Below, piece after piece: positions 1 through 8,319 of a stretch of DNA of 64,000 bases. The position numbers and the translations under genes were made by a program. Origin of the DNA: an uncultured Acidobacteriota bacterium (lineage in GTDB: Bacteria; Acidobacteriota; Thermoanaerobaculia; Multivoradales; JBCCEF01). The notes beneath the pieces are model-generated. The model had not been told where the DNA came from, did no database searches, and saw only the letters and a program-made list of their open reading frames with translations. Position 1 is the first letter of the stretch. Every line of letters begins with the position of its first letter. Location: NCBI GenBank assembly GCA_963730155.1, contig CAVSQV010000006.1:22774-86773 (forward strand), given 5' to 3'.

Positions 1-302
1 TCCTGCGCCTGCTGCGGCGGGTGATCGACTCCGGCCGCGAGGCCGGCCTCGAGGTCAGCCTGTGCGGCGAGATGGCCGGCGACCCGCGCTATGCGCCGCT
101 CCTGATCGGCCTCGGCCTGCGCCGGCTGTCGATGAGCCCGCGCGTGGTGCCGGAGATCAAGACGCGGATCCGCGCCGCCTGCCTCTCCGACCTCGAGCGG
201 CTAGCCGAGGAGTGCCTCGGCTTCGCTACCGCCGCCGAGGTCGAGCGGCACTTGAGCGGAGCGCTCGGCGCCCTGGTCGGGGCGCGCGAGGAGCAGGCGT
301 GA
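1..302 (+). CDS. ptsI: PEP-protein phosphotransferase (PTS enzyme I), 3' end, truncated by window edge
   Basis: SLCGEMAGDP..LLIGLGLRRLSMSP is the characteristic EI C-terminal motif. Confidence 0.9.
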   Translation, partial: LRLLRRVIDSGREAGLEVSLCGEMAGDPRYAPLLIGLGLRRLSMSPRVVPEIKTRIRAACLSDLERLAEECLGFATAAEVERHLSGALGALVGAREEQA

Positions 303-1321
303 GGCGGCTCCGGATCGGCGCGGGCCTTGTGGCCGTGGCGCTGGCCCTCGCGGCCTGCGCAGCCGGTGTCGGCTGCGCCCAGCCGGAGCCGGTGACGCCG
401 TCGGAGGCGGCCGTCTTGGCCGAGGAGACGCGGGCGATGGCCGGGCTGCCGTCGGGCGCCGAGGCGCCGCCGCCGGAAGAGCTCGAGGAGACCGCCGCCA
501 CCGAGCTGCCGCCGCCACCCGCCGCGGCCGCCGCGCCGCCGCCCGACTCCGGAGCCTCCGCCGCCGCGGCGCGTGGCGAGGCGGTCGACGTGAGCCGGTT
601 GATCGAGGAGAAGGAGGGCGCCGCCGAAGGCGCACCCGCCGATCCGACCGTGATCCAGATCGGCCCCGCCGCCGATGGCGTTTACGCCCCGCCGACCCTC
701 GCCGAAGCCGCTGCGGCGGCGCGCGAGAAGCGCCGCAGCGAGGGGCAGCCGCGGTCGACCCTGGTGATCAACAACGACAACCTCGCCGCCTTCGGTGCCG
801 GGGGGCAGGTCACCCTGGTGACGCCGGGCCCGACGGCGGCGCCGGCGGCGGCCGCGCCCGGCGCCACACCGGCCGATGCCGCCGCCGACGATGCCGCGGA
901 TCCCGAGCGCGGCCCGGCCGGCCCCCGCGACGAGGCCTACTGGCGCGACCGCGCCCGTGGCGTCCGCACGCGCTGGGCTGACGCCGCCCGCGAGGTCGAG
1001 CGCCTCGAGGACCAGGCGGCCCAGCTCCGCTGGGACTTCTACGCCGAGGACGATCCCTGGTACCGCGACGAGCGGATCAAGCCCGAATGGGACCGCGTGC
1101 TCGACGAGCTGCGCAGCGCCCGCCAGGACGTCCGCGCCTACCGCGAGGAGCTGGCCGAGGTGATCGAGGAGGGACGCCGCGCCGGGGCGCTGCCCGGCTG
1201 GCTGCGGGACGGCATCGAGCTCGAACCGGAGGAGCCCGATTCGCCGGTCCGCCGCGAGCCGGGCGAGGAGGACATCGAGGAGCCCACCATCTTCGGCGAG
1301 GGCGAGGGGGAGCGGCCGTGA
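299..1321 (+). CDS. Hypothetical exported protein/lipoprotein, Ala/Pro-rich, C-terminal coiled coil
   Basis: GTG at 299 overlaps the ptsI stop (GTGA). Signal peptide RRLRIGAGLVAVALALAAC. DEAYWR helical region. GTGA overlap with miaB. Confidence 0.7.
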   Translation: MRRLRIGAGLVAVALALAACAAGVGCAQPEPVTPSEAAVLAEETRAMAGLPSGAEAPPPEELEETAATELPPPPAAAAAPPPDSGASAAAARGEAVDVSRLIEEKEGAAEGAPADPTVIQIGPAADGVYAPPTLAEAAAAAREKRRSEGQPRSTLVINNDNLAAFGAGGQVTLVTPGPTAAPAAAAPGATPADAAADDAADPERGPAGPRDEAYWRDRARGVRTRWADAAREVERLEDQAAQLRWDFYAEDDPWYRDERIKPEWDRVLDELRSARQDVRAYREELAEVIEEGRRAGALPGWLRDGIELEPEEPDSPVRREPGEEDIEEPTIFGEGEGERP

Positions 1322-2697
1322 CCCTGACCCTGCTCCCAGCCGGTGCCGTCGAGGCCGAGCCGAGCCGGCCGCGCCGCTTCTTCATCGAGACCTGGGGCTG
1401 CCAGATGAACGAGCTGGACAGCCAGCGGATGGCCGGCCAGCTCATGCAACAGGGGATCCTGCCCACCCGCGACGCCGCCGAGGCCGACGTCATCCTGCTC
1501 AACTCGTGCAGCGTGCGCGAGAACGCGGAGAACAAGGTCTACTCGCGTCTGGGCGAGTACCGCCGCTTCAAGCGCGACGGCGCCGAGCCGCTGATCGGCC
1601 TCTGCGGCTGCGTCGCCCAGCAGGCCGGCGAGCGCGCGCTGGCGCGGGTGCCCGAGATCGATTTCGTCCTCGGCCCGGCGCGGGTGGGGGAGCTGGCCGA
1701 CGTGATCGAGCGCCGCCGAGCCGGCGAACGCGTGGTCGCCACCGGGTTCCCGGAGGACCGTCCGTACGCCTTCGACTCGATCTCGCGCCACGGCGAGTAC
1801 AAGGGGATGGTGACGATCATCGAAGGGTGCAACAAGCGCTGCACCTTCTGCATCGTGCCGTCGACCCGCGGCCCCGAACGCAGCCGCCCGATGGCCGAGA
1901 TCGTCGCCGAGGTCGAGCACCTGCTCGACTTCGGCTTCGTCGAGATCGAGCTCCTGGGCCAGACCGTCAACCACTGGCGCGAGCCGGGCGCCGGCGACGG
2001 CGGACCCGACTTCGCCGACCTGCTCGACCGCCTCGCCCGGCTCCCCGGCCTCCGCCGCCTGCGCTTCGTCACCTCCTACCCGCGCGACTTCACGCCGCGG
2101 ATGGTCGACCAGCTAGGCCGCCACGAGGCGATCTGCAACTACCTCCACCTGCCGGTGCAGTCGGGCTCCGACCGCGTCCTCCAGAGAATGGGCCGCGGCT
2201 ACACCGCCGAGGCCTATCGCCGCCTGATCGCCGACCTCCGCGCCGCGCGCCCCGACCTCGCGCTCTCGACCGACCTGATCGTCGGCTTCCCGGGCGAGAC
2301 CCGCGAGGACTTCGAAGCCACCCTGCGCCTGGTCGAGCAGGCCGAATTCACCTCGATCTACGCCTTCCGCTACAGCCCCCGCCCCTTGACCGCCGCCCCC
2401 CGCCTCGGCGACCCGATTGACCCCGCCGAGGCCGACCAGCGCCTCCAGAAGCTGTTCGAGCTCCAGTCCGTTATCCAGCGCCGCCTCCACCAGACCCTGA
2501 TCGGCCGCACCCTCGACGTCCTGGTCACCGGCTGGGCCAAAGAGCCCAACCACCAAGTCGGCCGCACCACCTGCCACCGCGCCGTCACCTTTCCGACCCC
2601 CGCCCCCCCAGCCCCCCTCGGCACCCTAACCCGAGTCCTGATCGAGTCCGCCCACACCCACGGCTTGGCCGGCGAGCCTTTTACCGCGCCCCTCTGA
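1318..2697 (+). CDS. miaB: tRNA-2-methylthio-N6-dimethylallyladenosine synthase MiaB (radical SAM)
   Basis: ETWGCQMN, LNSCSVRENAE, EGCNKRCTFC (CxxxCxxC), LHLPVQSGSD, STDLIVGFPGET, C-terminal TRAM domain. Confidence 0.93.
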   Translation: MTLTLLPAGAVEAEPSRPRRFFIETWGCQMNELDSQRMAGQLMQQGILPTRDAAEADVILLNSCSVRENAENKVYSRLGEYRRFKRDGAEPLIGLCGCVAQQAGERALARVPEIDFVLGPARVGELADVIERRRAGERVVATGFPEDRPYAFDSISRHGEYKGMVTIIEGCNKRCTFCIVPSTRGPERSRPMAEIVAEVEHLLDFGFVEIELLGQTVNHWREPGAGDGGPDFADLLDRLARLPGLRRLRFVTSYPRDFTPRMVDQLGRHEAICNYLHLPVQSGSDRVLQRMGRGYTAEAYRRLIADLRAARPDLALSTDLIVGFPGETREDFEATLRLVEQAEFTSIYAFRYSPRPLTAAPRLGDPIDPAEADQRLQKLFELQSVIQRRLHQTLIGRTLDVLVTGWAKEPNHQVGRTTCHRAVTFPTPAPPAPLGTLTRVLIESAHTHGLAGEPFTAPL

Positions 2698-2714
2698 CGC
2701 CCCCCGCCCAATCC

Positions 2715-2760
2715 AAGCCGGCGCCGTGCCCTGGGAGGGGAGCCCCAGGGCCCGGACCGG
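2715..2760 (+). repeat. Partial copy (one end) of the MITE-like repeat family at 5231-5401 / 5652-5818
   Basis: aagccggcgccgtgccctgggaggg matches 5776-5800. It continues gagcccca (copy-1-like) then cccggaccgg (copy-2-like). Confidence 0.75.
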
Positions 2761-2819
2761 GGGAGGGGGGAGGGGGAGGGGACTTGACCTCCCCCCACCC
2801 CCACCAGACAATACCCCCC

Positions 2820-3335
2820 ATGACCACCCCCCCCGCCGCCGATCCCCGTGAAGAAGTCCGAATGGAGATCCGGGGCCTCATCCTCGACCCGAGCTCCAGC
2901 CGCCCGATCGTCGTCCTCCGCGACGAGAACAGCCAGGTCGTGCTGCCCATCTGGATCGGCCTCTTCGAGGCCAACGCCATCGCGCAGCGGATCGAGAACG
3001 CCGAGCCCCCGCGTCCGATGACCCACGACCTGATGCAGTCCCTGCTCCAACAGATCGGGGTGGCGATCAAGAAGATCGTGATCTCCGACCTCCGGGACGA
3101 CACCTTCTTCGCCCTGATCCACGTCGACCGCGATGGCCGCGAGATCGAGGTCGACGCCCGGCCCAGCGACGCGATCGCCCTCGCCCTGCGCGCCGATGCG
3201 CCGATCTTCGTCCTCCGGCCGGTCCTCGAGAAGGCCAAGGCCGTCGACCTGGCGGGCCAGGGCACCGACGAGGAGAAGCTCAAGAAGTGGCTCGAAGAGA
3301 TCAGCCCCGAGGACCTCGGCAAGTACACGATGTGA
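2820..3335 (+). CDS. Bifunctional nuclease family protein (DUF151)
   Basis: LPIWIGLFEANAIA, RPMTHDL, IEVDARPSDAIALALR motifs. Start could also be ATG at 2862. Confidence 0.9.
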   Translation: MTTPPAADPREEVRMEIRGLILDPSSSRPIVVLRDENSQVVLPIWIGLFEANAIAQRIENAEPPRPMTHDLMQSLLQQIGVAIKKIVISDLRDDTFFALIHVDRDGREIEVDARPSDAIALALRADAPIFVLRPVLEKAKAVDLAGQGTDEEKLKKWLEEISPEDLGKYTM

Positions 3336-3369
3336 CCCGACCCGTGATCCCGACGGCCGCAATCTCCTC

Positions 3370-3385
3370 TGTCGGCGCGCCGACA
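3370..3385. promoter_or_regulatory. 16-bp perfect palindrome TGTCGGCGCGCCGACA, candidate parS/operator, copy 1
   Basis: Exact palindrome, repeated at 3449-3464, upstream of parA. Same length and TGT..ACA ends as canonical parS TGTTTCACGTGAAACA. Confidence 0.7.
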
Positions 3386-3444
3386 CAGGCCATGACCGGC
3401 CCCGCTCGCAACTTGAAAGCGCCTGGAAAGACAGTGAATTTTGC

Positions 3445-3468
3445 GCGATGTCGGCGCGCCGACATCGC
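3445..3468. promoter_or_regulatory. Candidate parS/operator copy 2 (core 3449-3464, extended to a 24-bp palindrome)
   Basis: GCGATGTCGGCGCGCCGACATCGC is a perfect palindrome, ending 57 bp upstream of the parA ATG. Confidence 0.7.
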
Positions 3469-3525
3469 CCTCGCAATGCCCATGGAGAGCCCTGACCGTC
3501 CCTCGACGGATTCCGCAATCAGCCG

Positions 3526-4284
3526 ATGATCATCGCCATCACCAATCAGAAGGGCGGAGTGGGGAAGACCACGACCGCGATCAACCTCTCGGCGGCCCTG
3601 GCGAGCAAGGGCCTCCGCACGCTACTGGTCGACCTCGACCCGCAGGCCAACAGCTCGATGTCGTTCCTCGACATCCACCAGCCTCGCAAGACGGTCTACG
3701 AGGCCCTCACCGAGAGCGACGTCCACATCGCCGACATCATCGTGCCGTCCGACGGCACGCCCGGGCTCGACATCGCGCCGTCGTCGATCTCGCTCGCCAA
3801 GATCGAAGCCAAGCTGATCGGCGAGCTCGACAGCCACTACCGGCTCAAGGACGAGCTGACGACGCTCCACACACGCTACGACTTCATCATCATCGACACG
3901 CCGCCGACCCTCGGCATCATCACGGTCAACGCCCTGGTCGCGGCCACCCACGTGCTGATCCCGGTGCAGGCCAGCTACTTCGCGCTCGAGGGGACGGACG
4001 ACCTCCTGGAGACAGTGGAGAAGGTCAAGATGCGCGCCAACCCGGAGCTCCAGATCCTCGGCGCGCTGATCACCCTCTACGACAAGCGGACGCTCCTCGC
4101 CAAGGACATCCAGGACCAGGTCCGCGCGGTCTTCGGCGGCCGGGTCTTCGAGACGGTGATCACCAAGAGCGTGCGCCTCGAGGAGAGCCCGGCCTATCGG
4201 GAGTCGATCTTCACCTTCGCGCCGCGATCGAGCGGGGCGTACGAGTACTACCGACTGTCCGAGGAGGTGGTCAGCCGTGTCTGA
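3526..4284 (+). CDS. parA: ParA/Soj family ATPase (no N-terminal HTH)
   Basis: NQKGGVGKTT deviant Walker A, VDLDPQAN, IIDTPP, YDKRT, SVRLEESP. Confidence 0.93.
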   Translation: MIIAITNQKGGVGKTTTAINLSAALASKGLRTLLVDLDPQANSSMSFLDIHQPRKTVYEALTESDVHIADIIVPSDGTPGLDIAPSSISLAKIEAKLIGELDSHYRLKDELTTLHTRYDFIIIDTPPTLGIITVNALVAATHVLIPVQASYFALEGTDDLLETVEKVKMRANPELQILGALITLYDKRTLLAKDIQDQVRAVFGGRVFETVITKSVRLEESPAYRESIFTFAPRSSGAYEYYRLSEEVVSRV

Positions 4285-5179
4285 AGTGACGGCCAAGCGC
4301 AAGGGGCTTCCGGTCCGGGTCAAGATGCGGCACCAGTCGCACTTCGTCGACGAGCTGGCCGCGCGCCACGACGCGCCGGTGGGGAAGATGGTGCCGCTCT
4401 CGTCCATCGAGCCCGACACGAACCAGCCACGGTCCGCGATGGGAGACCTCGGCGACCTGGTCTCGTCGATCCGCTCGAAGGGGGTCCTCGAGCCGATCCT
4501 GGTCCGCCCGAACCCCGACCTCGAGGACGGCCCCGGCGAGCCGAACGCCAAGGCCGCCGCCTACCGCATCATCTCCGGAGAACGCCGCTATCGCGCGGCG
4601 CGCGAGGCCGGCCTGTACGAGGTTCCGGTGGTGGTGATGGAGGTCTCGGAGGAAGAGGCGCTAGAGATCGCCCTGATCGAGAATCTCCAGCGCAAGGACC
4701 TCACGCCGTTCGAGGAGGCGGAGGGTTACCGCGCCCTCGCCGATCGCCACGGCTACACGCAGGAGCAGATCGCGGAAACGGTGGGGAAGGCGCGCACGGT
4801 GATCACCGAGAGCCTCGCTCTCCTCAGCCTGCCGCCGCGGGTGCGCGACACGGCGGAGGCGTTGGGGATCGGCTCGAAGTCGCTGCTGCTCGAGGTGCTC
4901 AAGGTCGGCACTCCGGAGGAGATGGTCCGCCTGCTCGAGGAGGTGGCGTCGCACGGCCTCAACCGCGACGACCTCCGGCGCCGGATGCGCGGCGGCTCGT
5001 CGGCGGGCGGCGGCAAGCGGCGGAAGAAGCCCTACACCTTCCGGTTCAAGGCGGCGGACAAGACTTACTCGCTGGCGCTGAGCTTCCGGCAGTCGGAGGT
5101 GGACCGGGGGGACTTGATCCGTGCGCTCGAGGAGATCCTCCAGAAGCTCCGGCACGAGGCTTCGGCGCCTGCTTCCTGA
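4277..5179 (+). CDS. parB: ParB/Spo0J family CTPase and DNA-binding protein
   Basis: NQPR, GVLEPILVR, IISGERRYRAA (CTP motif), IENLQRKDL, HTH TQEQIAETVGKARTVITESL. Overlaps the parA end. Confidence 0.92.
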   Translation: MSEVTAKRKGLPVRVKMRHQSHFVDELAARHDAPVGKMVPLSSIEPDTNQPRSAMGDLGDLVSSIRSKGVLEPILVRPNPDLEDGPGEPNAKAAAYRIISGERRYRAAREAGLYEVPVVVMEVSEEEALEIALIENLQRKDLTPFEEAEGYRALADRHGYTQEQIAETVGKARTVITESLALLSLPPRVRDTAEALGIGSKSLLLEVLKVGTPEEMVRLLEEVASHGLNRDDLRRRMRGGSSAGGGKRRKKPYTFRFKAADKTYSLALSFRQSEVDRGDLIRALEEILQKLRHEASAPAS

Positions 5180-5230
5180 GCTTGCGTCCCCCAAGGCCCG
5201 CGGAACCGGATCGCCTTTCGCCACCCGCCC

Positions 5231-5401
5231 GGCGGCCGGGGCGTGGGGCTCCCTCCCAGGGCACGGCGCCGGCTCTGAGTGGGCGGGTGTCGGTCGGCCG
5301 GCGCCTCGTCAGCCCGCGCGCGGGTCCTTGTCGCCTTCTGAATCGGTGCGTTGAGCGCGCGGGCTGGCGTCCCTGGGAGGGAGCCCCACGCCCCGGCCGC
5401 C
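5231..5401. repeat. MITE/REPIN-like element copy 1, 171 bp, perfect 31-bp terminal inverted repeats
   Basis: 5231-5261 ggcggccggggcgtggggctccctcccaggg is the exact reverse complement of 5371-5401. Confidence 0.85.
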
Positions 5402-5487
5402 GCCCGCCCCACGGTAACCCCTTCAAGAGGGAAGAGGATCAGAAGACGGCATGACCAACAGCCCTTGTGGACGGCTTCACGGATGTG

Positions 5488-5515
5488 AGTTGACATAATA
5501 CATCTTATCGGACTC
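5488..5515 (-). other. dif: dif chromosome dimer resolution site (XerC/XerD)
   Basis: Minus strand GAGTCCGATAA-GATGTA-TTATGTCAACT has 11-6-11 architecture. XerD arm matches B. subtilis TTATGTAAACT at 10/11 and E. coli TTATGTTAAAT at 9/11. XerC arm ends ATAA. Intergenic AT-rich islet. Confidence 0.88.
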
Positions 5516-5651
5516 AAGATATCGGGTTGATGGCTGGCTGCTCACGGGCGCTCCGGGCCCTGCGCGCCCGATCTTGGACCCAGCCGCAACTGTGACTCCG
5601 CCCGGGTCTCAGGACCGTGGGAGCCAACCTCCCGCCGAGAACCGCCGAGGA

Positions 5652-5818
5652 GGTCCGGGTCGAGGGCATCCCTCCCAGGGACGCCAGCCCGCGCGCTCAA
5701 CGCACCGATTCGCAAGGCGACAAGGACCCGCGCGCGGGCTGACGAGGCGCCGGCCGACCGACCCCCGCTCACTCAAAGCCGGCGCCGTGCCCTGGGAGGG
5801 ATGCCCTCGACCCGGACC
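5652..5818. repeat. MITE/REPIN-like element copy 2, inverted relative to copy 1, perfect 29-bp terminal inverted repeats
   Basis: Internal ~130 bp is a near-exact reverse complement of copy 1. 5652-5680 ggtccgggtcgagggcatccctcccaggg pairs with 5790-5818. Confidence 0.85.
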
Positions 5819-5904
5819 GGCCGCTTCAGTCCGAGTGCCCTCCGGACCGGCCCGACACTCATGGCCTTGTCCCCAGACGGACCCCCGACCGATAGACTCA
5901 CCCC

Positions 5905-8319
5905 GTGCTGAACGCGCTCAAGCCAGGACGCCTCCTGGACCGCTACCTGGTCGCCGAGATGATCGGCCCGATCGCCCTCGGCTTCCTGATCTACACCGGG
6001 ATCCTCCTGCTGCGCTTCCTCTTCCAGTCCGCCGAGATGATCATCCAGCGCGGCCTGCCCGTTGCGATCGTCGGCCGGCTGGTGGCGTACAGCCTGCCGA
6101 ACATCCTGGTCCTGACCATCCCGATGGCCCTCCTGTTCGGGATCCTCATCGCCCTCGGCCGCCTGTCCTCCGACAGCGAACTGATCGCCCTGCGATCGAG
6201 CGGCATGAGCCTGACCACCCTCTACCGCCCGATCCTCTTCCTCTCCCTCTGCTTCGCCCTGCTCAACACCTACCTGATGGTCAAGCTCCTGCCCCAGGGC
6301 AACCACGCCCTCCAGCAGCTCCGCCTCGAGATCATCACCGAGTCCGTGGCCGCCCAGGTCGAGCCGCGGGTCTTCTACTCCGAGTTCGAAGACACCCTGC
6401 TCTACGTCTTCGAACGCCCGAAGGGCGAAGAGCGGTGGCGCGGCGTGTTCGTCGCCCAGACCCTGCCCACGAGGAAGAACGAGATCACCGTCGCCGAGTG
6501 GGGCCGGATCAAGCTCGACGACAGCGGCGAGCGGGTCATGCTCGAACTGGGCAACGCCTACACCCACCAGGTCGACCTCGACGACCCGGGCACCTACCAC
6601 ATCGACTTCATCCGCCGCGTCGAGAAAGTGCTCGAGGACCGCTTCACCTCCACCCAGCGGGAGAAGATCCTCAGCTCCAAGAGCCTGCGCGAGCTGACCC
6701 TCGACGAGCTCGCCGCCGAGGCCGCCGATCCCGGTGTGGACGCCGAGCAGCGGCGCATGGCGCGGGTCGAGATCCACAAGAAGTTCGCGATCCCGGCCGC
6801 CTGCGTGGTGTTCGGGATCATCGCCCTGCCGCTCGGCTTCAGCAGCCGGCGCGGCGGCAAGGCTTCGGGTTTCGTGCTGTCGCTGGGGGTCTTCGCGCTC
6901 TATTACCTGCTGCTCAACAACGGCGAGAACGCCGCCCGCTACGGCAAGATGGCGCCCTGGGCCGCGATCTGGATGTCGAACATCCTGCTCGCCGTGGCCG
7001 GCTTGCTCCTGCTGATGCGGCGCAACCGGGACAAGAGCCTGATGCTGTCGCGCATCGACCGCTGGGTGCGTGAGGACTTCTGGGGCCGGCTGGTGCGCTT
7101 CCAGCACTGGCGGTCGACCCAGGAGCGGCGGCGGAAAGAGCGGCGGGAGAGCGGCAAGGGGGGCGGCAACGGCGGCCCCGTCCCGGAGGTCGTGCTCCGG
7201 CTCCCCCGCCTGCGCCTGCGCGTGCCCAACACGCTGGATCGCTACGTGGTGCGTCAGTTCGTCCTGGTGTTCGTGCTGGCGGTGCTCTCGGCTCTCGTCC
7301 TCTACATCATCTTCGACCTGGTCGAGAACTTCGACGAGATCCTCGAGAACCGGGTCTCGCGCGGGGTCGTGCTCTCCTACTACAAGTACCTGTCGCTCCA
7401 GATCTTCTACGACACCGCGCCGTTCATGGTGCTGGTGACCGTCCTGATGGCGTTCAGCCTGCTCGCCCGCAGCAACGAGGTCACGGCCTGCAAGGCGCTG
7501 GGGATCTCGCTCTACCGGCTGGCGATCCCGGCGATCGGCGCGGCCGCCGTGGTGATGCTGCTGTCGATGTTCCTCGAAGCCGAGGTGCTGCCGGCCTCGA
7601 ACCGCAAGGTGGCGGAGCTCAAGGACGTGATCAAGGGGCGCGAGACCTCGCGCACCTACCGGCGGGCCGACCGGCAGTGGCTCTTCGGGCAGGACCGGTT
7701 CGTCTACAACTACATGCACTACGACCCGCGGGGCCCGTCCCTGCAGCGCCTCCAGGTGTTCGAGTTCGACCGCGAGCACCGGCTGATCGGCCGATTCTTC
7801 GCCGACCGCGGCACCTACGTCGGCGACGTCGGCGGCGGTGACTGGCGGTTCAACGAGGGGTGGCTGCGCCGCTTCGATGGCGTCCGGGTCACCGAGTTCG
7901 TCGCCCTCGACCGGCCGCGGCGGGTCGACTACCCGGAGACGCCGGAGTTCTTCGACTCCGAGATCCTGCCGCCCGAGCAGATGACCTACGGCGAGCTCCG
8001 GGAGTACATCGGCGATGTCGCCGCCAGCGGCCAGCCGGTGCCCGACCTCAAGGTCGAGCTGTACCAGAAGCTCGCCTACCCGGCGATCTCGCTGGTGATG
8101 GCGTTCGTCGCCCTCCCCTTCGCCTTCCGGCTCGGGCGCCAGGGGGCACTCTACGGGATCGGCGTGTCGCTCGGGCTCGGGTTCCTCTTCTTCGGGATCT
8201 TCGCCTTCTTCACCAAGCTGGGCGCAGCCGGCGCGCTGCCGCCCGGGCTCGCGGTGTGGAGTCCGAACCTGCTGTTCGCGATGTTCGCGGTCTACCTGTT
8301 CCTCGGGGTGCGGACCTGA
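5905..8319 (+). CDS. lptFG: Fused LptF-LptG LPS export permease
   Basis: Two tandem YjgP/YjgQ modules: LDRYLVAE..GRLSSDSELIALRSSG and LDRYVVRQ..RSNEVTACKALGIS. Each has TM3-beta jellyroll-TM3 layout. Confidence 0.9.
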   Translation: MLNALKPGRLLDRYLVAEMIGPIALGFLIYTGILLLRFLFQSAEMIIQRGLPVAIVGRLVAYSLPNILVLTIPMALLFGILIALGRLSSDSELIALRSSGMSLTTLYRPILFLSLCFALLNTYLMVKLLPQGNHALQQLRLEIITESVAAQVEPRVFYSEFEDTLLYVFERPKGEERWRGVFVAQTLPTRKNEITVAEWGRIKLDDSGERVMLELGNAYTHQVDLDDPGTYHIDFIRRVEKVLEDRFTSTQREKILSSKSLRELTLDELAAEAADPGVDAEQRRMARVEIHKKFAIPAACVVFGIIALPLGFSSRRGGKASGFVLSLGVFALYYLLLNNGENAARYGKMAPWAAIWMSNILLAVAGLLLLMRRNRDKSLMLSRIDRWVREDFWGRLVRFQHWRSTQERRRKERRESGKGGGNGGPVPEVVLRLPRLRLRVPNTLDRYVVRQFVLVFVLAVLSALVLYIIFDLVENFDEILENRVSRGVVLSYYKYLSLQIFYDTAPFMVLVTVLMAFSLLARSNEVTACKALGISLYRLAIPAIGAAAVVMLLSMFLEAEVLPASNRKVAELKDVIKGRETSRTYRRADRQWLFGQDRFVYNYMHYDPRGPSLQRLQVFEFDREHRLIGRFFADRGTYVGDVGGGDWRFNEGWLRRFDGVRVTEFVALDRPRRVDYPETPEFFDSEILPPEQMTYGELREYIGDVAASGQPVPDLKVELYQKLAYPAISLVMAFVALPFAFRLGRQGALYGIGVSLGLGFLFFGIFAFFTKLGAAGALPPGLAVWSPNLLFAMFAVYLFLGVRT

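What the first reader, a model, noticed from the sequence alone, without database searches (positions are those of the whole stretch)
3370..5515. Complete non-canonical ParABS module beside the dif site: candidate terminus-positioning system
Seen: parA-parB, two 16-bp palindromes upstream, and a 28-bp dif match about 310 bp after the parB stop. Genes to the left point toward dif, and most genes from 8.3 to 41 kb are on the minus strand, also pointing toward it, as expected where forks converge. No dnaA/rsmG/mnmG origin context is present. Known: chromosomal parABS loci are normally origin-proximal, and described ter organisers (MatP/matS, ZapT) are not ParABS; the ParB paralog Noc acts without its own ParA. 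Inference: a second, orthogonal ParABS may segregate or position the terminus, or couple it to division. The flanks are housekeeping genes (ptsI, miaB, lptFG), which argues against a recently integrated plasmid.
Basis: partly seen in the sequence, partly recalled or inferred. Interest (0 to 1): 0.9.

Follow-up and report, generated by a model that had tools for sequence, protein, structure and literature searches.

The report
Second ParABS system beside chromosomal dif
This Acidobacteriota chromosome carries, besides its normal origin-side partition genes, a second complete partition module with its own DNA site placed right next to the dimer-resolution site at the replication terminus, and that arrangement is kept across much of the phylum, which suggests a dedicated terminus-handling machine not found described in the papers searched.

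Summary
parA2 lies at 3526-4284 and parB2 at 4277-5179. Two copies of TGTCGGCGCGCCGACA lie at 3370 and 3449, and these are the only two in the 6.2-Mb assembly. A 28-bp dif-like site lies at 5488-5515, 309 bp after the parB2 stop.

The locus is at the terminus. A skewed 7-mer (GGGGGAG), learned on other contigs, flips exactly at this site (13 forward/2 reverse on the left, 1/20 on the right). A canonical parAB with two canonical parS cores lies 15 kb from dnaA on another contig.

- ParB2 orthologs occur in 121 of 121 sampled genomes of the class and in 90 of 151 of the phylum.
- In 10 of 10 single-contig genomes parB2 lies 42-50% of the chromosome away from dnaA.
- dif follows the parB2 stop in 49 of 60 loci, at a median of 151 bp.
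- The site TGTCGGC-NN-GCCGACA is present in 51 of 60 loci.
- In five closed genomes all nine copies lie within 76 kb of parB2.

ParB2 keeps the CTP-clamp residues but has a changed recognition helix.

Best reading: an orthogonal ParABS that marks and positions or segregates the terminus. This function is inferred, not shown. I found no description of it in eight literature searches. It is a new variant of a known kind, of high interest.

The parts
3370..3385 (.). parS2 copy 1: 16-bp perfect palindrome TGTCGGCGCGCCGACA
   Evidence: One of only two exact copies in the genome. The same 16-mer lies upstream of parA2 in 29 of 30 loci of the order.
3449..3464 (.). parS2 copy 2, identical, 79 bp after copy 1 and 62 bp before the parA2 start
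3526..4284 (+). parA2: 252-aa Soj-type ParA ATPase with deviant Walker A (NQKGGVGKTT)
   Evidence: Pfam AAA_31 3e-59. 43% identical to ParA1 of the same genome and of the same length. 61-82% identical across 57 relatives, with N7-T17 invariant.
4277..5179 (+). parB2: 300-aa ParB CTPase-type protein with a GTG start that overlaps parA2 by 8 nt
   Evidence: Pfam ParB_N + HTH_ParB. PDB phmmer: Spo0J 1vz0 2.6e-36, M. xanthus ParB 7bnk 3e-36. AF2 model pLDDT 87.6. Foldseek top hits are ParB-CDP/CTPgammaS, Noc and Caulobacter ParB. Invariant Q50-P51-R52, G101/R103/R104, E135/N136/R139, R173 and E178 in 58 sequences.
5230..5402 (.). Copy of a ~170-nt hairpin-ended dispersed repeat (MITE-like), left of dif
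   Evidence: 32-nt perfectly complementary ends (I3). 22 blastn hits of at least 150 bp in the genome.
5488..5515 (+). dif: AGTTGACATAA-TACATC-TTATCGGACTC (11-6-11)
   Evidence: Unique in the genome, 43.6 bits against 5.3. Sits at the flip of the skewed 7-mer. Conserved downstream of parB2 in 49 of 60 loci. Its reverse complement matches the Frankia alni dif quoted in PMC3025954 at 18 of 22 arm positions (my own comparison).
5652..5818 (.). Second copy of the same repeat in the opposite orientation, right of dif
   Evidence: Inverted pair I1: 161 nt, 92% complementary, 258 nt between the arms, with dif in between.
2784..3335 (+). BFN-domain gene (PF02577), conserved left neighbour
   Evidence: Pfam 1.3e-41. 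Found beside parA2 in 27 of the 30 relatives' loci compared; L038 is cut by its contig end, L086 shows only parB2, and in L043 it lies about 3 kb upstream. Found beside dif in two genomes without ParB2.
1087..2697 (+). MiaB-type radical-SAM methylthiotransferase ORF, conserved neighbour
   Evidence: Pfam Radical_SAM + UPF0004; synteny.
5905..8319 (+). Fused lptF/lptG permease gene, conserved right neighbour of dif
   Evidence: Pfam LptF_LptG 4.3e-156, two stretches; synteny.

Best explanation
This is a second, complete ParABS partition system, orthogonal to the origin one, that belongs to the replication terminus.

Shown:
- The chromosome has a canonical parS-parA1-parB1 near dnaA.
- At the opposite pole of the chromosome it has parS2-parA2-parB2 directly followed by the XerCD site dif.
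- This second set is vertically inherited and under strong conservation across the class Thermoanaerobaculia and more than half of the sampled Acidobacteriota.
- Its 16-bp site occurs only in the terminus region.

Inferred mechanism:
1. ParB2 dimers recognise TGTCGGC-NN-GCCGACA through a changed recognition helix.
2. They close as CTP clamps, since all CTP-binding and hydrolysis residues are kept, and slide over the neighbouring DNA. That DNA includes dif, 0.4-2.8 kb away.
3. This builds a partition complex that marks the terminus.
4. The conserved N-terminal peptide (RGLP-x4-MRH-x2-HFVEEL) stimulates nucleoid-bound ParA2-ATP.
5. By the usual diffusion-ratchet, ParA2 keeps a single terminus complex at mid-nucleoid and moves the two sister termini apart after replication and dimer resolution. 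dif is thereby held where FtsK and XerCD act.

The two parS2 copies just upstream of parA2 probably also give autoregulation.
For: Identity of the parts:
- Pfam, PDB and fold matches of ParA2 and ParB2.
- Invariant QPR, GERR and ENLQR motifs in 58 ParB2 sequences. The Q and E of these motifs align to the residues mutated in the M. xanthus ParB Q52A and E93A entries (the offset is my own count).

Orthogonality:
- parS2 differs from the canonical parS given in the finding at 10 of 16 positions.
- ParB2 has invariant E178 in TVITESL where ParB1 has N in TITNALR.
- ParB2 is about 40% identical to ParB1, and ParA2 is 43% identical to ParA1.

Terminus position:
- GGGGGAG was learned on C3 and is equally skewed on C2 and C7. 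On C6 it is 13 forward/2 reverse left of dif and 1/20 right of it. On C3 it flips near dnaA (p = 6e-7).
- dnaA and parB2 lie 42-50% of the chromosome apart in 10 of 10 single-contig genomes.

Conservation:
- ParB2 orthologs in 39 of 41 genomes of the order, 121 of 121 of the class and 90 of 151 of the phylum sample. The score gap runs from 161 to 128 bits.
- A full-length parA2 directly upstream in 57 of 59 loci.
- dif after the parB2 stop in 49 of 60 loci, median 151 bp.
- In L034 and L035 parA2-parB2-dif is inverted as one unit relative to its flanks.

Site:
- The exact motif is in 51 of 60 loci. It lies upstream of parA2 in this order, and inside parB2 at about +516 to +537, or just after it, elsewhere.
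- Genome-wide in five closed genomes there are 9 sites, all within 76 kb of parB2. One genome has five sites spread over 130 kb around parB2. The reversed-pattern control gave 0.

Partners of dif:
- An FtsK gamma domain in this genome.
- XerD over the curated cut-off plus a second Xer in 5 of 5 closed relatives.
Against: - No experiment of any kind. Binding of ParB2 to parS2, CTP dependence, stimulation of ParA2 and any cellular localisation are all inferred.
- The assembly is 79% complete in 11 contigs, and the locus is on an 88.8-kb contig. In this genome the terminus call therefore rests on the skewed motif, gene strands and relatives, not on a closed replicon. Plain GC skew is weak.
- The neighbourhood miaB-BFN-dif-lptFG is conserved even without parAB2. 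Linkage to dif could be inherited order.
- 61 of 151 phylum genomes lack ParB2 at E <= 1e-45, so the system is dispensable in those lineages.
- In 11 of 60 loci no dif was found within the fetched flanks. In G149, G220 and G244 it was not found anywhere with my pattern.
- In one family the only parS2 copy lies 22.5 kb from parB2.
- dif occurs in either orientation relative to parB2 (34 + and 15 -).
- A simple promoter scan found no sigma-70-like promoter at parS2.
Confidence: 0.6

Rival explanations
1. Division-site or nucleoid-occlusion role. The ParB2-parS2 complex is only a landmark. ParA2 (like MipZ or PomZ) or ParB2 (like Noc) acts on FtsZ or the divisome, so that division is placed over, or licensed by, the terminus. 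Moving DNA is not its task.
For: - MinD was not found in this genome nor in any of 151 sampled Acidobacteriota at E <= 1e-45, while the control found it over the cut-off in 6 of 14 known genomes. How this phylum places its septum is therefore open.
- ParB2's best NCBIfam row is the Noc model (143.7 bits).
- ParA2 has a weak MipZ match (1.8e-13).
- Sites restricted to the terminus would make a good midcell mark.
Against: - The Noc score is far below its cut-off of 315.
- ParB2 keeps a ParA-type N-terminal peptide and has its own ParA partner. It shows no predicted N-terminal amphipathic helix; residues 1-22 are coil in the model.
- MinD is missing equally in genomes with and without ParB2, so there is no complementary pattern.
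- No link to FtsZ was tested.
Confidence: 0.15
2. Terminus DNA-processing role. ParB2 clamps loaded beside dif control other machines at the terminus. They might load, stall or unload SMC complexes arriving from the origin, or gate FtsK translocation and XerCD recombination at dif. ParA2 would have a secondary role.
For: - The spacing to dif is very tight: median 151 bp from the parB2 stop, and parS2 lies 364-2806 bp from dif.
- Canonical ParB recruits SMC at parS (review PMC7333895, passages seen).
- In one closed genome xerD lies 4.4 kb from parB2.
Against: - ParA2 is the better conserved of the two proteins (61-82% identity), which argues for a positioning function.
- No SMC, FtsK or Xer contact was tested.
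- dif works without ParAB2 in the 61 of 151 sampled genomes that lack it.
Confidence: 0.15
3. Relic of a mobile element. A plasmid or Xer-exploiting element carrying parABS once integrated at dif. What remains is a self-regulating gene pair with no chromosome-level function.
For: - The module sits exactly between BFN and dif, and is exactly missing there in two ParB2-less genomes. That is the position expected for integration by Xer recombination.
- Islands integrated at dif that carry parA/parB homologues are known (gonococcal genetic island; recalled, not checked here).
Against: - No second dif-like site anywhere in the genome.
- No mobile genes lie between miaB and lptFG.
- No close plasmid relative: the best hit is 86 bits and all are below 60% identity.
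- Present in 121 of 121 genomes of the class, with ParA2 61-82% and ParB2 39-72% identical and catalytic residues invariant.
- Extra parS2 copies are spread over 130 kb of terminus in one genome.
- An ancient mobile origin followed by domestication is not excluded.
Confidence: 0.07

Closest known systems
Canonical chromosomal ParABS (Soj/Spo0J-parS), origin-proximal
   Same: - A 252-aa deviant Walker A ParA.
- A ParB with ParB_N and HTH domains and the QPR, GERR and ENLQR CTP motifs.
- A C-terminal strand-strand-helix domain.
- A 16-bp palindromic site beside or inside the operon.
- parA-parB gene order.
   Different: - It lies at the terminus beside dif instead of near oriC.
- It coexists with a canonical set in the same chromosome.
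- The site differs at 10 of 16 positions.
- The recognition helix has E and S/A where the canonical ParB has N and R.
- The N-terminal peptide is RGLP..MRH..HFVEEL instead of RGLGRGLDALI.
- Reviews describe parS as origin-proximal (PMC7333895 and PMC7022226, passages only).
Noc (ParB paralogue of Firmicutes)
   Same: A ParB duplicate with a changed DNA site that coexists with the canonical ParB. It is the best NCBIfam row and a close fold match.
   Different: [quoted passage not shown] That Noc has no ParA partner, and that its sites are spread over the chromosome away from the terminus, is recalled, not taken from that call.
- ParB2 has its own ParA, a site that differs at 10 of 16 positions, and sites only at the terminus.
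- Its score is below the Noc cut-off (143.7 against 315).
MatP/matS (and other terminus organisers such as ZapT)
   Same: A DNA-binding protein whose sites are confined to the terminus region. The closest parallel is the five sites in 130 kb around dif in one closed genome.
   Different: Unrelated protein family with no ATPase motor and no CTP clamp. These properties of MatP are recalled, not tested here.
dif-adjoining canonical parS sites predicted in Conchiformibius steedae (bioRxiv 10.64898/2026.07.20.739713; passages seen)
   Same: parS-type sites next to dif are proposed to help orient the chromosome.
   Different: There the sites are dialects of the canonical parS, bound by the single canonical ParB. 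No second ParA/ParB pair or orthogonal site is described in the passages I saw.
ParAB2/parS2 of secondary chromosomes (Vibrio cholerae chromosome 2)
   Same: A second, orthogonal ParABS in one cell with its own site.
   Different: That system serves a separate replicon and sits near its origin (abstracts in the listing, and recall). Here both systems are on one chromosome, shown by single-contig genomes that hold dnaA, parB1 and parB2.

Membership tests
ParABS partition system (chromosomal type, small ParA) | ParA with the deviant Walker A motif KGGxGK[ST] | tested here: met
   NQKGGVGKTT at residues 7-16, invariant in 58 of 58 ParA2 sequences; AAA_31 3e-59.
ParABS partition system (chromosomal type, small ParA) | ParB with an N-terminal CTPase domain (QPR, GERR, ENLQR) and an HTH domain | tested here: met
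   Pfam ParB_N + HTH_ParB. Q50, P51, R52, G101, R103, R104, E135, N136 and R139 are invariant. Fold matches ParB-CDP/CTPgammaS structures.
ParABS partition system (chromosomal type, small ParA) | Cognate palindromic centromere site bound by ParB | tested here: inconclusive
   A conserved 16-bp palindrome is linked to the genes in 51 of 60 loci and is terminus-restricted genome-wide. Binding itself cannot be tested with these tools.
ParABS partition system (chromosomal type, small ParA) | ParB N-terminal peptide that contacts and stimulates ParA | tested here: inconclusive
   A conserved basic peptide with invariant G10-L11-P12 is present. The interaction was not established.
Canonical origin-proximal chromosomal parABS | Location near oriC/dnaA and the canonical parS TGTTNCACGTGAAACA | tested here: not met
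   The locus is 42-50% of the chromosome from dnaA in 10 of 10 closed relatives. Canonical cores occur only at C3:3036011 and C3:3036048, beside parA1.
dif / XerCD chromosome dimer resolution site | 28-bp site with two 11-bp arms around a 6-bp centre, single copy, at the skew switch opposite oriC | tested here: met
   11-6-11 layout with the two middle columns of the centre least conserved. Unique in the genome. Sits at the flip of the skewed 7-mer. Antipodal to dnaA in relatives. Matches a published actinobacterial dif at 18 of 22 arm positions.
dif / XerCD chromosome dimer resolution site | XerC/XerD recombinases and FtsK with a gamma domain encoded in the genome | tested here: inconclusive
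   FtsK gamma is present (94.6 bits). In this assembly the XerD-like genes appear in pieces and below the cut-off (C2:373421-374182, C7:698094-698642). 5 of 5 closed relatives have XerD over the cut-off plus a second Xer.
Noc (nucleoid occlusion protein) | Score over the TIGR04285 cut-off; N-terminal amphipathic helix; no ParA partner | tested here: not met
   143.7 bits against a cut-off of 315. A full-length parA2 is found directly upstream in 57 of 59 loci. The N-terminus is a basic coil in the model.
IMEX / island integrated at dif | A second dif-like site flanking the element, plus mobility genes | tested here: not met
   The next best dif-matrix score in the genome is 5.3 bits. The flanks are miaB, BFN and lptFG.

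The most novel reading that the evidence does not exclude
Acidobacteriota that carry this module have two centromeres on one chromosome: the usual one at the origin, and a dedicated terminus centromere (parS2/ParB2) driven by its own ParA motor. The second system holds dif at mid-nucleoid, separates the sister termini, and serves as the spatial cue that couples septum placement to the end of replication. The phylum sample showed no MinD in any of 151 genomes. This would be a ParABS whose cargo is the terminus, a role not found in the papers searched.
Probability: 0.35. Interest if true: 0.92.

Novelty: new variant of a known kind. Interest (0 to 1): 0.85.

Why it matters
ParABS is the textbook origin-segregation machine. 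Active handling of the terminus is known only from unrelated proteins in a few model lineages.

A conserved, orthogonal ParABS sits beside dif, with sites found only in the terminus region. It would show that the same motor-clamp principle was recruited for the other pole of the chromosome. It would also give a concrete, testable handle on terminus positioning, dimer resolution and division coupling in a large, poorly studied soil phylum that showed no MinD in the 151 genomes sampled.

It also supplies a natural pair of non-cross-reacting ParB/parS systems within one chromosome. That pair is useful for studying specificity evolution and as orthogonal DNA-labelling tools.

Tried and rejected
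- Plain GC skew is weak and noisy at contig scale. I did not rely on it and used a skewed oligomer learned on other contigs instead.
- A loose ATAA-N6-TTAT scan gave three sites. The two on C3 are perfect palindromes. One lies about 600 bp from a tyrosine recombinase gene (C3:978257-979135), and both score below 5 bits with the dif matrix. I rejected them as the chromosome dif.
- MinD as a complementary marker: none was found in 151 genomes whether or not ParB2 is present, so there is no informative correlation.
- The promoter/terminator scan of 3250-5950 found no promoter at parS2 and no terminator.
- The Rfam scan of 2600-6000 gave only a sub-threshold SgrS match inside parB2 (19.8 bits against 37), taken as chance.
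- The plasmid tblastn found no close relative.
- The Protein Atlas search lists Acidobacteriota as the commonest phylum of the nearest clusters. I used this only as a lead on range.
- Complex prediction (ParA2 dimer + ATP + ParB2 residues 1-45, collected) returned no answer (score 0.24, mark 0.32). This is neither for nor against binding.
- I did not build a ParB1/ParB2 tree with outgroups. Whether ParB2 arose by duplication of ParB1 or by capture is therefore open.
- I did not test whether the family occurs outside Acidobacteriota.
- Literature: eight searches and passages of four papers gave no description of a second ParAB pair at the terminus. The exact 16-mer had 0 occurrences among the top-ranked papers. 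Supplements were not seen, and subscription-only papers are not in the library.
- Unpublished genomes: the tallies include G044 and G131 and G044, G281 and G192. Without them the counts are 119 of 119 and 88 of 148. No locus I fetched comes from them.
Full report
WHAT IS THERE.

The window is G000:C6:22774-86773, from a 6,197,203-bp, 11-contig assembly of about 73% GC that is 79% complete.

- parA2: window 3526-4284 encodes a 252-aa ParA (AAA_31 3e-59, CbiA 1.6e-26).
- parB2: 4277-5179, overlapping parA2 by 8 nt, encodes a 300-aa ParB (ParB_N 2.5e-24, HTH_ParB 1.2e-16).
- Palindromes: two perfect 16-bp copies of TGTCGGCGCGCCGACA lie at 3370 and 3449, just upstream of parA2. They are the only exact copies in the assembly. 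Near matches with 1-3 mismatches are scattered GC-rich background.
- dif-like site: 309 bp after the parB2 stop lies AGTTGACATAA-TACATC-TTATCGGACTC (5488-5515).
- Flanks: a MiaB-type radical-SAM gene, a BFN-domain gene and a fused lptF/lptG gene.

IS IT THE TERMINUS, AND IS THE SITE dif?

Plain GC skew is weak. I therefore looked for strand-skewed octamers on one replichore of contig C3. The family around GGGGGAG is skewed in the same sense on the independent contigs C2 and C7.

- On C3 the 7-mer switches from reverse-rich to forward-rich at 3.0-3.1 Mb, where dnaA lies (C3:3019718-3021046).
- On C6 it is 13 forward/2 reverse left of the dif-like site and 1 forward/20 reverse right of it. Fisher p = 6e-7, or 2e-6 if four clustered hits in a repeat are dropped. 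The motif thus points at the site from both sides, as FtsK-orienting sequences do (the concept is recalled).
- Gene strands agree: 12 + and 1 - on the left, and 11 - and 2 + in the first 33 kb on the right.
- A matrix built from 27 sites of relatives scores the window's site at 43.6 bits. The next best place in the genome scores 5.3.
- The two other ATAA-N6-TTAT sites are palindromes. One lies beside a tyrosine recombinase gene.
- The reverse complement of the site matches the Frankia alni dif quoted by Kono et al. (PMC3025954, passages) at 18 of 22 arm positions.
- An FtsK gamma domain is encoded in the genome. XerD-like genes appear only in pieces in this assembly. However, 5 of 5 closed relatives have XerD over the curated cut-off plus a second Xer gene.

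A SEPARATE CANONICAL SYSTEM EXISTS.

The only other ParB_N match in the genome is at C3:3037607, 16 kb from dnaA. It is preceded by a 252-aa ParA1 and by the only two canonical parS cores in the genome (C3:3036011 and C3:3036048).

- ParA2 and ParA1 are 43% identical. ParB2 and ParB1 are about 40% identical.
- ParB1 carries the usual RGLGRGLDALI peptide and the TITNALRLL recognition helix.
- ParB2 carries RGLP-x4-MRH-x2-HFVEEL and TVITESLxLL.

CONSERVATION.

Contig titles of relatives place the lineage in Acidobacteriota, class Thermoanaerobaculia.

ParB2 orthologs form a separate score class: 161-635 bits and full length, against 128 bits or less for canonical ParBs.
- Order: 39 of 41 genomes. 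The two misses are 89% and 79% complete.
- Class: 121 of 121 genomes, spanning 61 genera.
- Phylum sample: 90 of 151 genomes, made up of 13 of 13 inside the class and 77 of 138 outside it.

Position relative to dnaA, in all ten single-contig genomes examined:
- G084 48.9%, G115 49.7%, G108 49.6%, G212 47.0%, G245 47.3%, G230 47.6%. These use exact contig lengths.
- G014 about 42%, G024 about 47%, G025 about 49%, G034 about 46%. These use rounded genome sizes.

Across the 60 loci fetched:
- A full-length parA2 directly precedes parB2 in 57 of 59 relatives. One locus is cut by a contig end and one has none detected.
- A dif-matrix hit above 20 bits is present in 49 of 60 loci: 27 of 30 in the order, 9 of 10 named MAG contigs, 9 of 10 in other orders of the class, and 4 of 10 in other classes.
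- That hit is always downstream of the parB2 stop, at a median of 151 bp (range 15-3128), and in either orientation (34 + and 15 -).
- One further genome has the site 5.3 kb downstream.
- The gene order miaB-BFN-parA2-parB2-dif-lptFG is kept across the phylum.
- In two MAGs the parA2-parB2-dif unit is inverted as a whole between the same flanks.
- In two closed genomes without ParB2, dif follows BFN directly. In a third it precedes lptFG.

The module was therefore gained or lost exactly at dif. Part of the linkage may simply be inherited gene order.

THE SITE.

The exact motif TGTCGGC-NN-GCCGACA is present in 51 of 60 loci.
- In the window's order it lies upstream of parA2, in 1-6 copies, in 29 of 30 loci.
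- In other orders and classes it lies inside parB2, at about +516 to +537 from the start of the parB2 match, or just after the gene.

A cis-site that keeps its sequence while changing position relative to the genes is strong evidence that it is functional.

Genome-wide in five closed genomes:
- Three genomes have a single copy, at the operon.
- One has a single copy 22.5 kb from parB2.
- One has five copies at -53, -22, 0, +50 and +76 kb from parB2.
- None lies elsewhere in 27 Mb, and the reversed-pattern control gave 0.

The site differs from the canonical parS given in the finding at 10 of 16 positions.

THE PROTEINS.

- ParB2 matches Thermus Spo0J and Myxococcus ParB by sequence (2.6e-36 and 3e-36).
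- The AlphaFold model, built on an alignment of 58 sequences, has pLDDT 87.6. Its best fold matches are ParB bound to CDP or CTPgammaS, Noc and Caulobacter ParB.
- Invariant in 58 sequences are Q50-P51-R52, G101/R103/R104, E135/N136/R139, R173 and E178. By my count of the offset in the alignment, Q50 and E102 correspond to the residues mutated in the M. xanthus Q52A and E93A entries. E102 is conserved in at least 90% of the sequences rather than invariant.
- ParB1 has N where ParB2 has the invariant E178.
- ParA2 is 61-82% identical across the phylum, with an invariant Walker A.
- No plasmid in PLSDB carries a close relative: the best hit is 86 bits and all 116 hits are below 60% identity.

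INTERPRETATION.

Shown:
- A complete second ParABS, orthogonal in site and recognition helix.
- It is vertically inherited.
- It is located at dif, opposite dnaA.
- Its sites are restricted to the terminus region.

Inferred:
- ParB2 loads at parS2 as a CTP clamp and covers dif.
- ParA2 positions or separates the resulting terminus complex.
- The two promoter-proximal sites autoregulate the operon.

Rivals that are not excluded, and are partly compatible:
- A division-site role. No MinD was found in 0 of 151 sampled genomes, but with no contrast between carriers and non-carriers.
- Control of SMC, FtsK or XerCD at the terminus.
- A mere mobile-element relic is unlikely, although capture at dif followed by domestication remains a plausible origin.

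NOVELTY.

- Reviews describe chromosomal ParABS as origin-proximal (PMC7333895 and PMC7022226, passages).
- Eight full-text searches found no second ParAB pair at a terminus.
- The nearest item is a 2026 preprint predicting dif-adjoining canonical parS sites for the single ParB of Conchiformibius steedae (passages).
- Supplements and subscription journals were not visible.

LIMITS.

- There are no experiments.
- The assembly is fragmented.
- The gene calls on C6 are my own crude GC3 filter.
- The dif matrix includes the window's own site among its 27.
- Relatives are not independent samples.
- The taxonomic range outside Acidobacteriota was not tested.
- The tallies include a few unpublished genomes, named in Tried and rejected.

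Noticed in passing
window 5230-5402 and 5652-5818 (also a partial copy near 2698-2770): A ~170-nt dispersed repeat with 29-32-nt perfectly complementary ends gives 22 blastn hits of at least 150 bp in the genome (30 hits in all). Two full copies form a 92%-complementary inverted pair that brackets dif, with only 258 nt between them. Such a pair could invert the dif segment by recombination. Relatives show dif in both orientations (34 + and 15 -). No Rfam family matches the repeat.
   Followed up: partly
G000:C6:1-5580 (outside the window, same contig): The first 5.6 kb of the contig is about 30% GC in a 73% GC genome. This could be foreign DNA or a chimeric contig end.
   Followed up: no
G000:C3:977654-977681 and C3:978257-979135: A perfectly palindromic Xer-like site (both arms alike) lies about 600 bp from a tyrosine recombinase gene, in a 100-kb stretch with unusual skew and lower GC. 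It may be a single-recombinase site or a mobile element. A second palindromic site is at C3:3270126, in a low-GC stretch with repeated integrase genes.
   Followed up: partly
whole genome; motif GGGGGAG: A strongly strand-skewed 7-mer (3-6 to 1 on the leading strand of three large contigs) flips at dnaA and at dif. It is a candidate FtsK-orienting sequence for this lineage.
   Followed up: partly
window 2784-3335 and relatives (L087, L088): The BFN-domain (PF02577) gene and miaB stay directly beside dif across the phylum, even in genomes without parAB2. Such conserved synteny around a terminus is unusual, and the role of the BFN protein is unknown.
   Followed up: partly
G000:C2:373421-374182 and C7:698094-698642: The XerD-like and XerC-like genes of this assembly appear as two or three pieces in different frames. 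These may be assembly indels or broken genes. Closed relatives have intact copies.
   Followed up: no
151 sampled Acidobacteriota genomes: No MinD (TIGR01968) match at E <= 1e-45 in any of them, although the control genomes gave matches. The phylum sample appears to lack the Min system.
   Followed up: partly
G245:C1:923183-924046: In this closed relative, xerD lies 4.4 kb from parB2 and dif, and five parS2 copies are spread over 130 kb around them.
   Followed up: no
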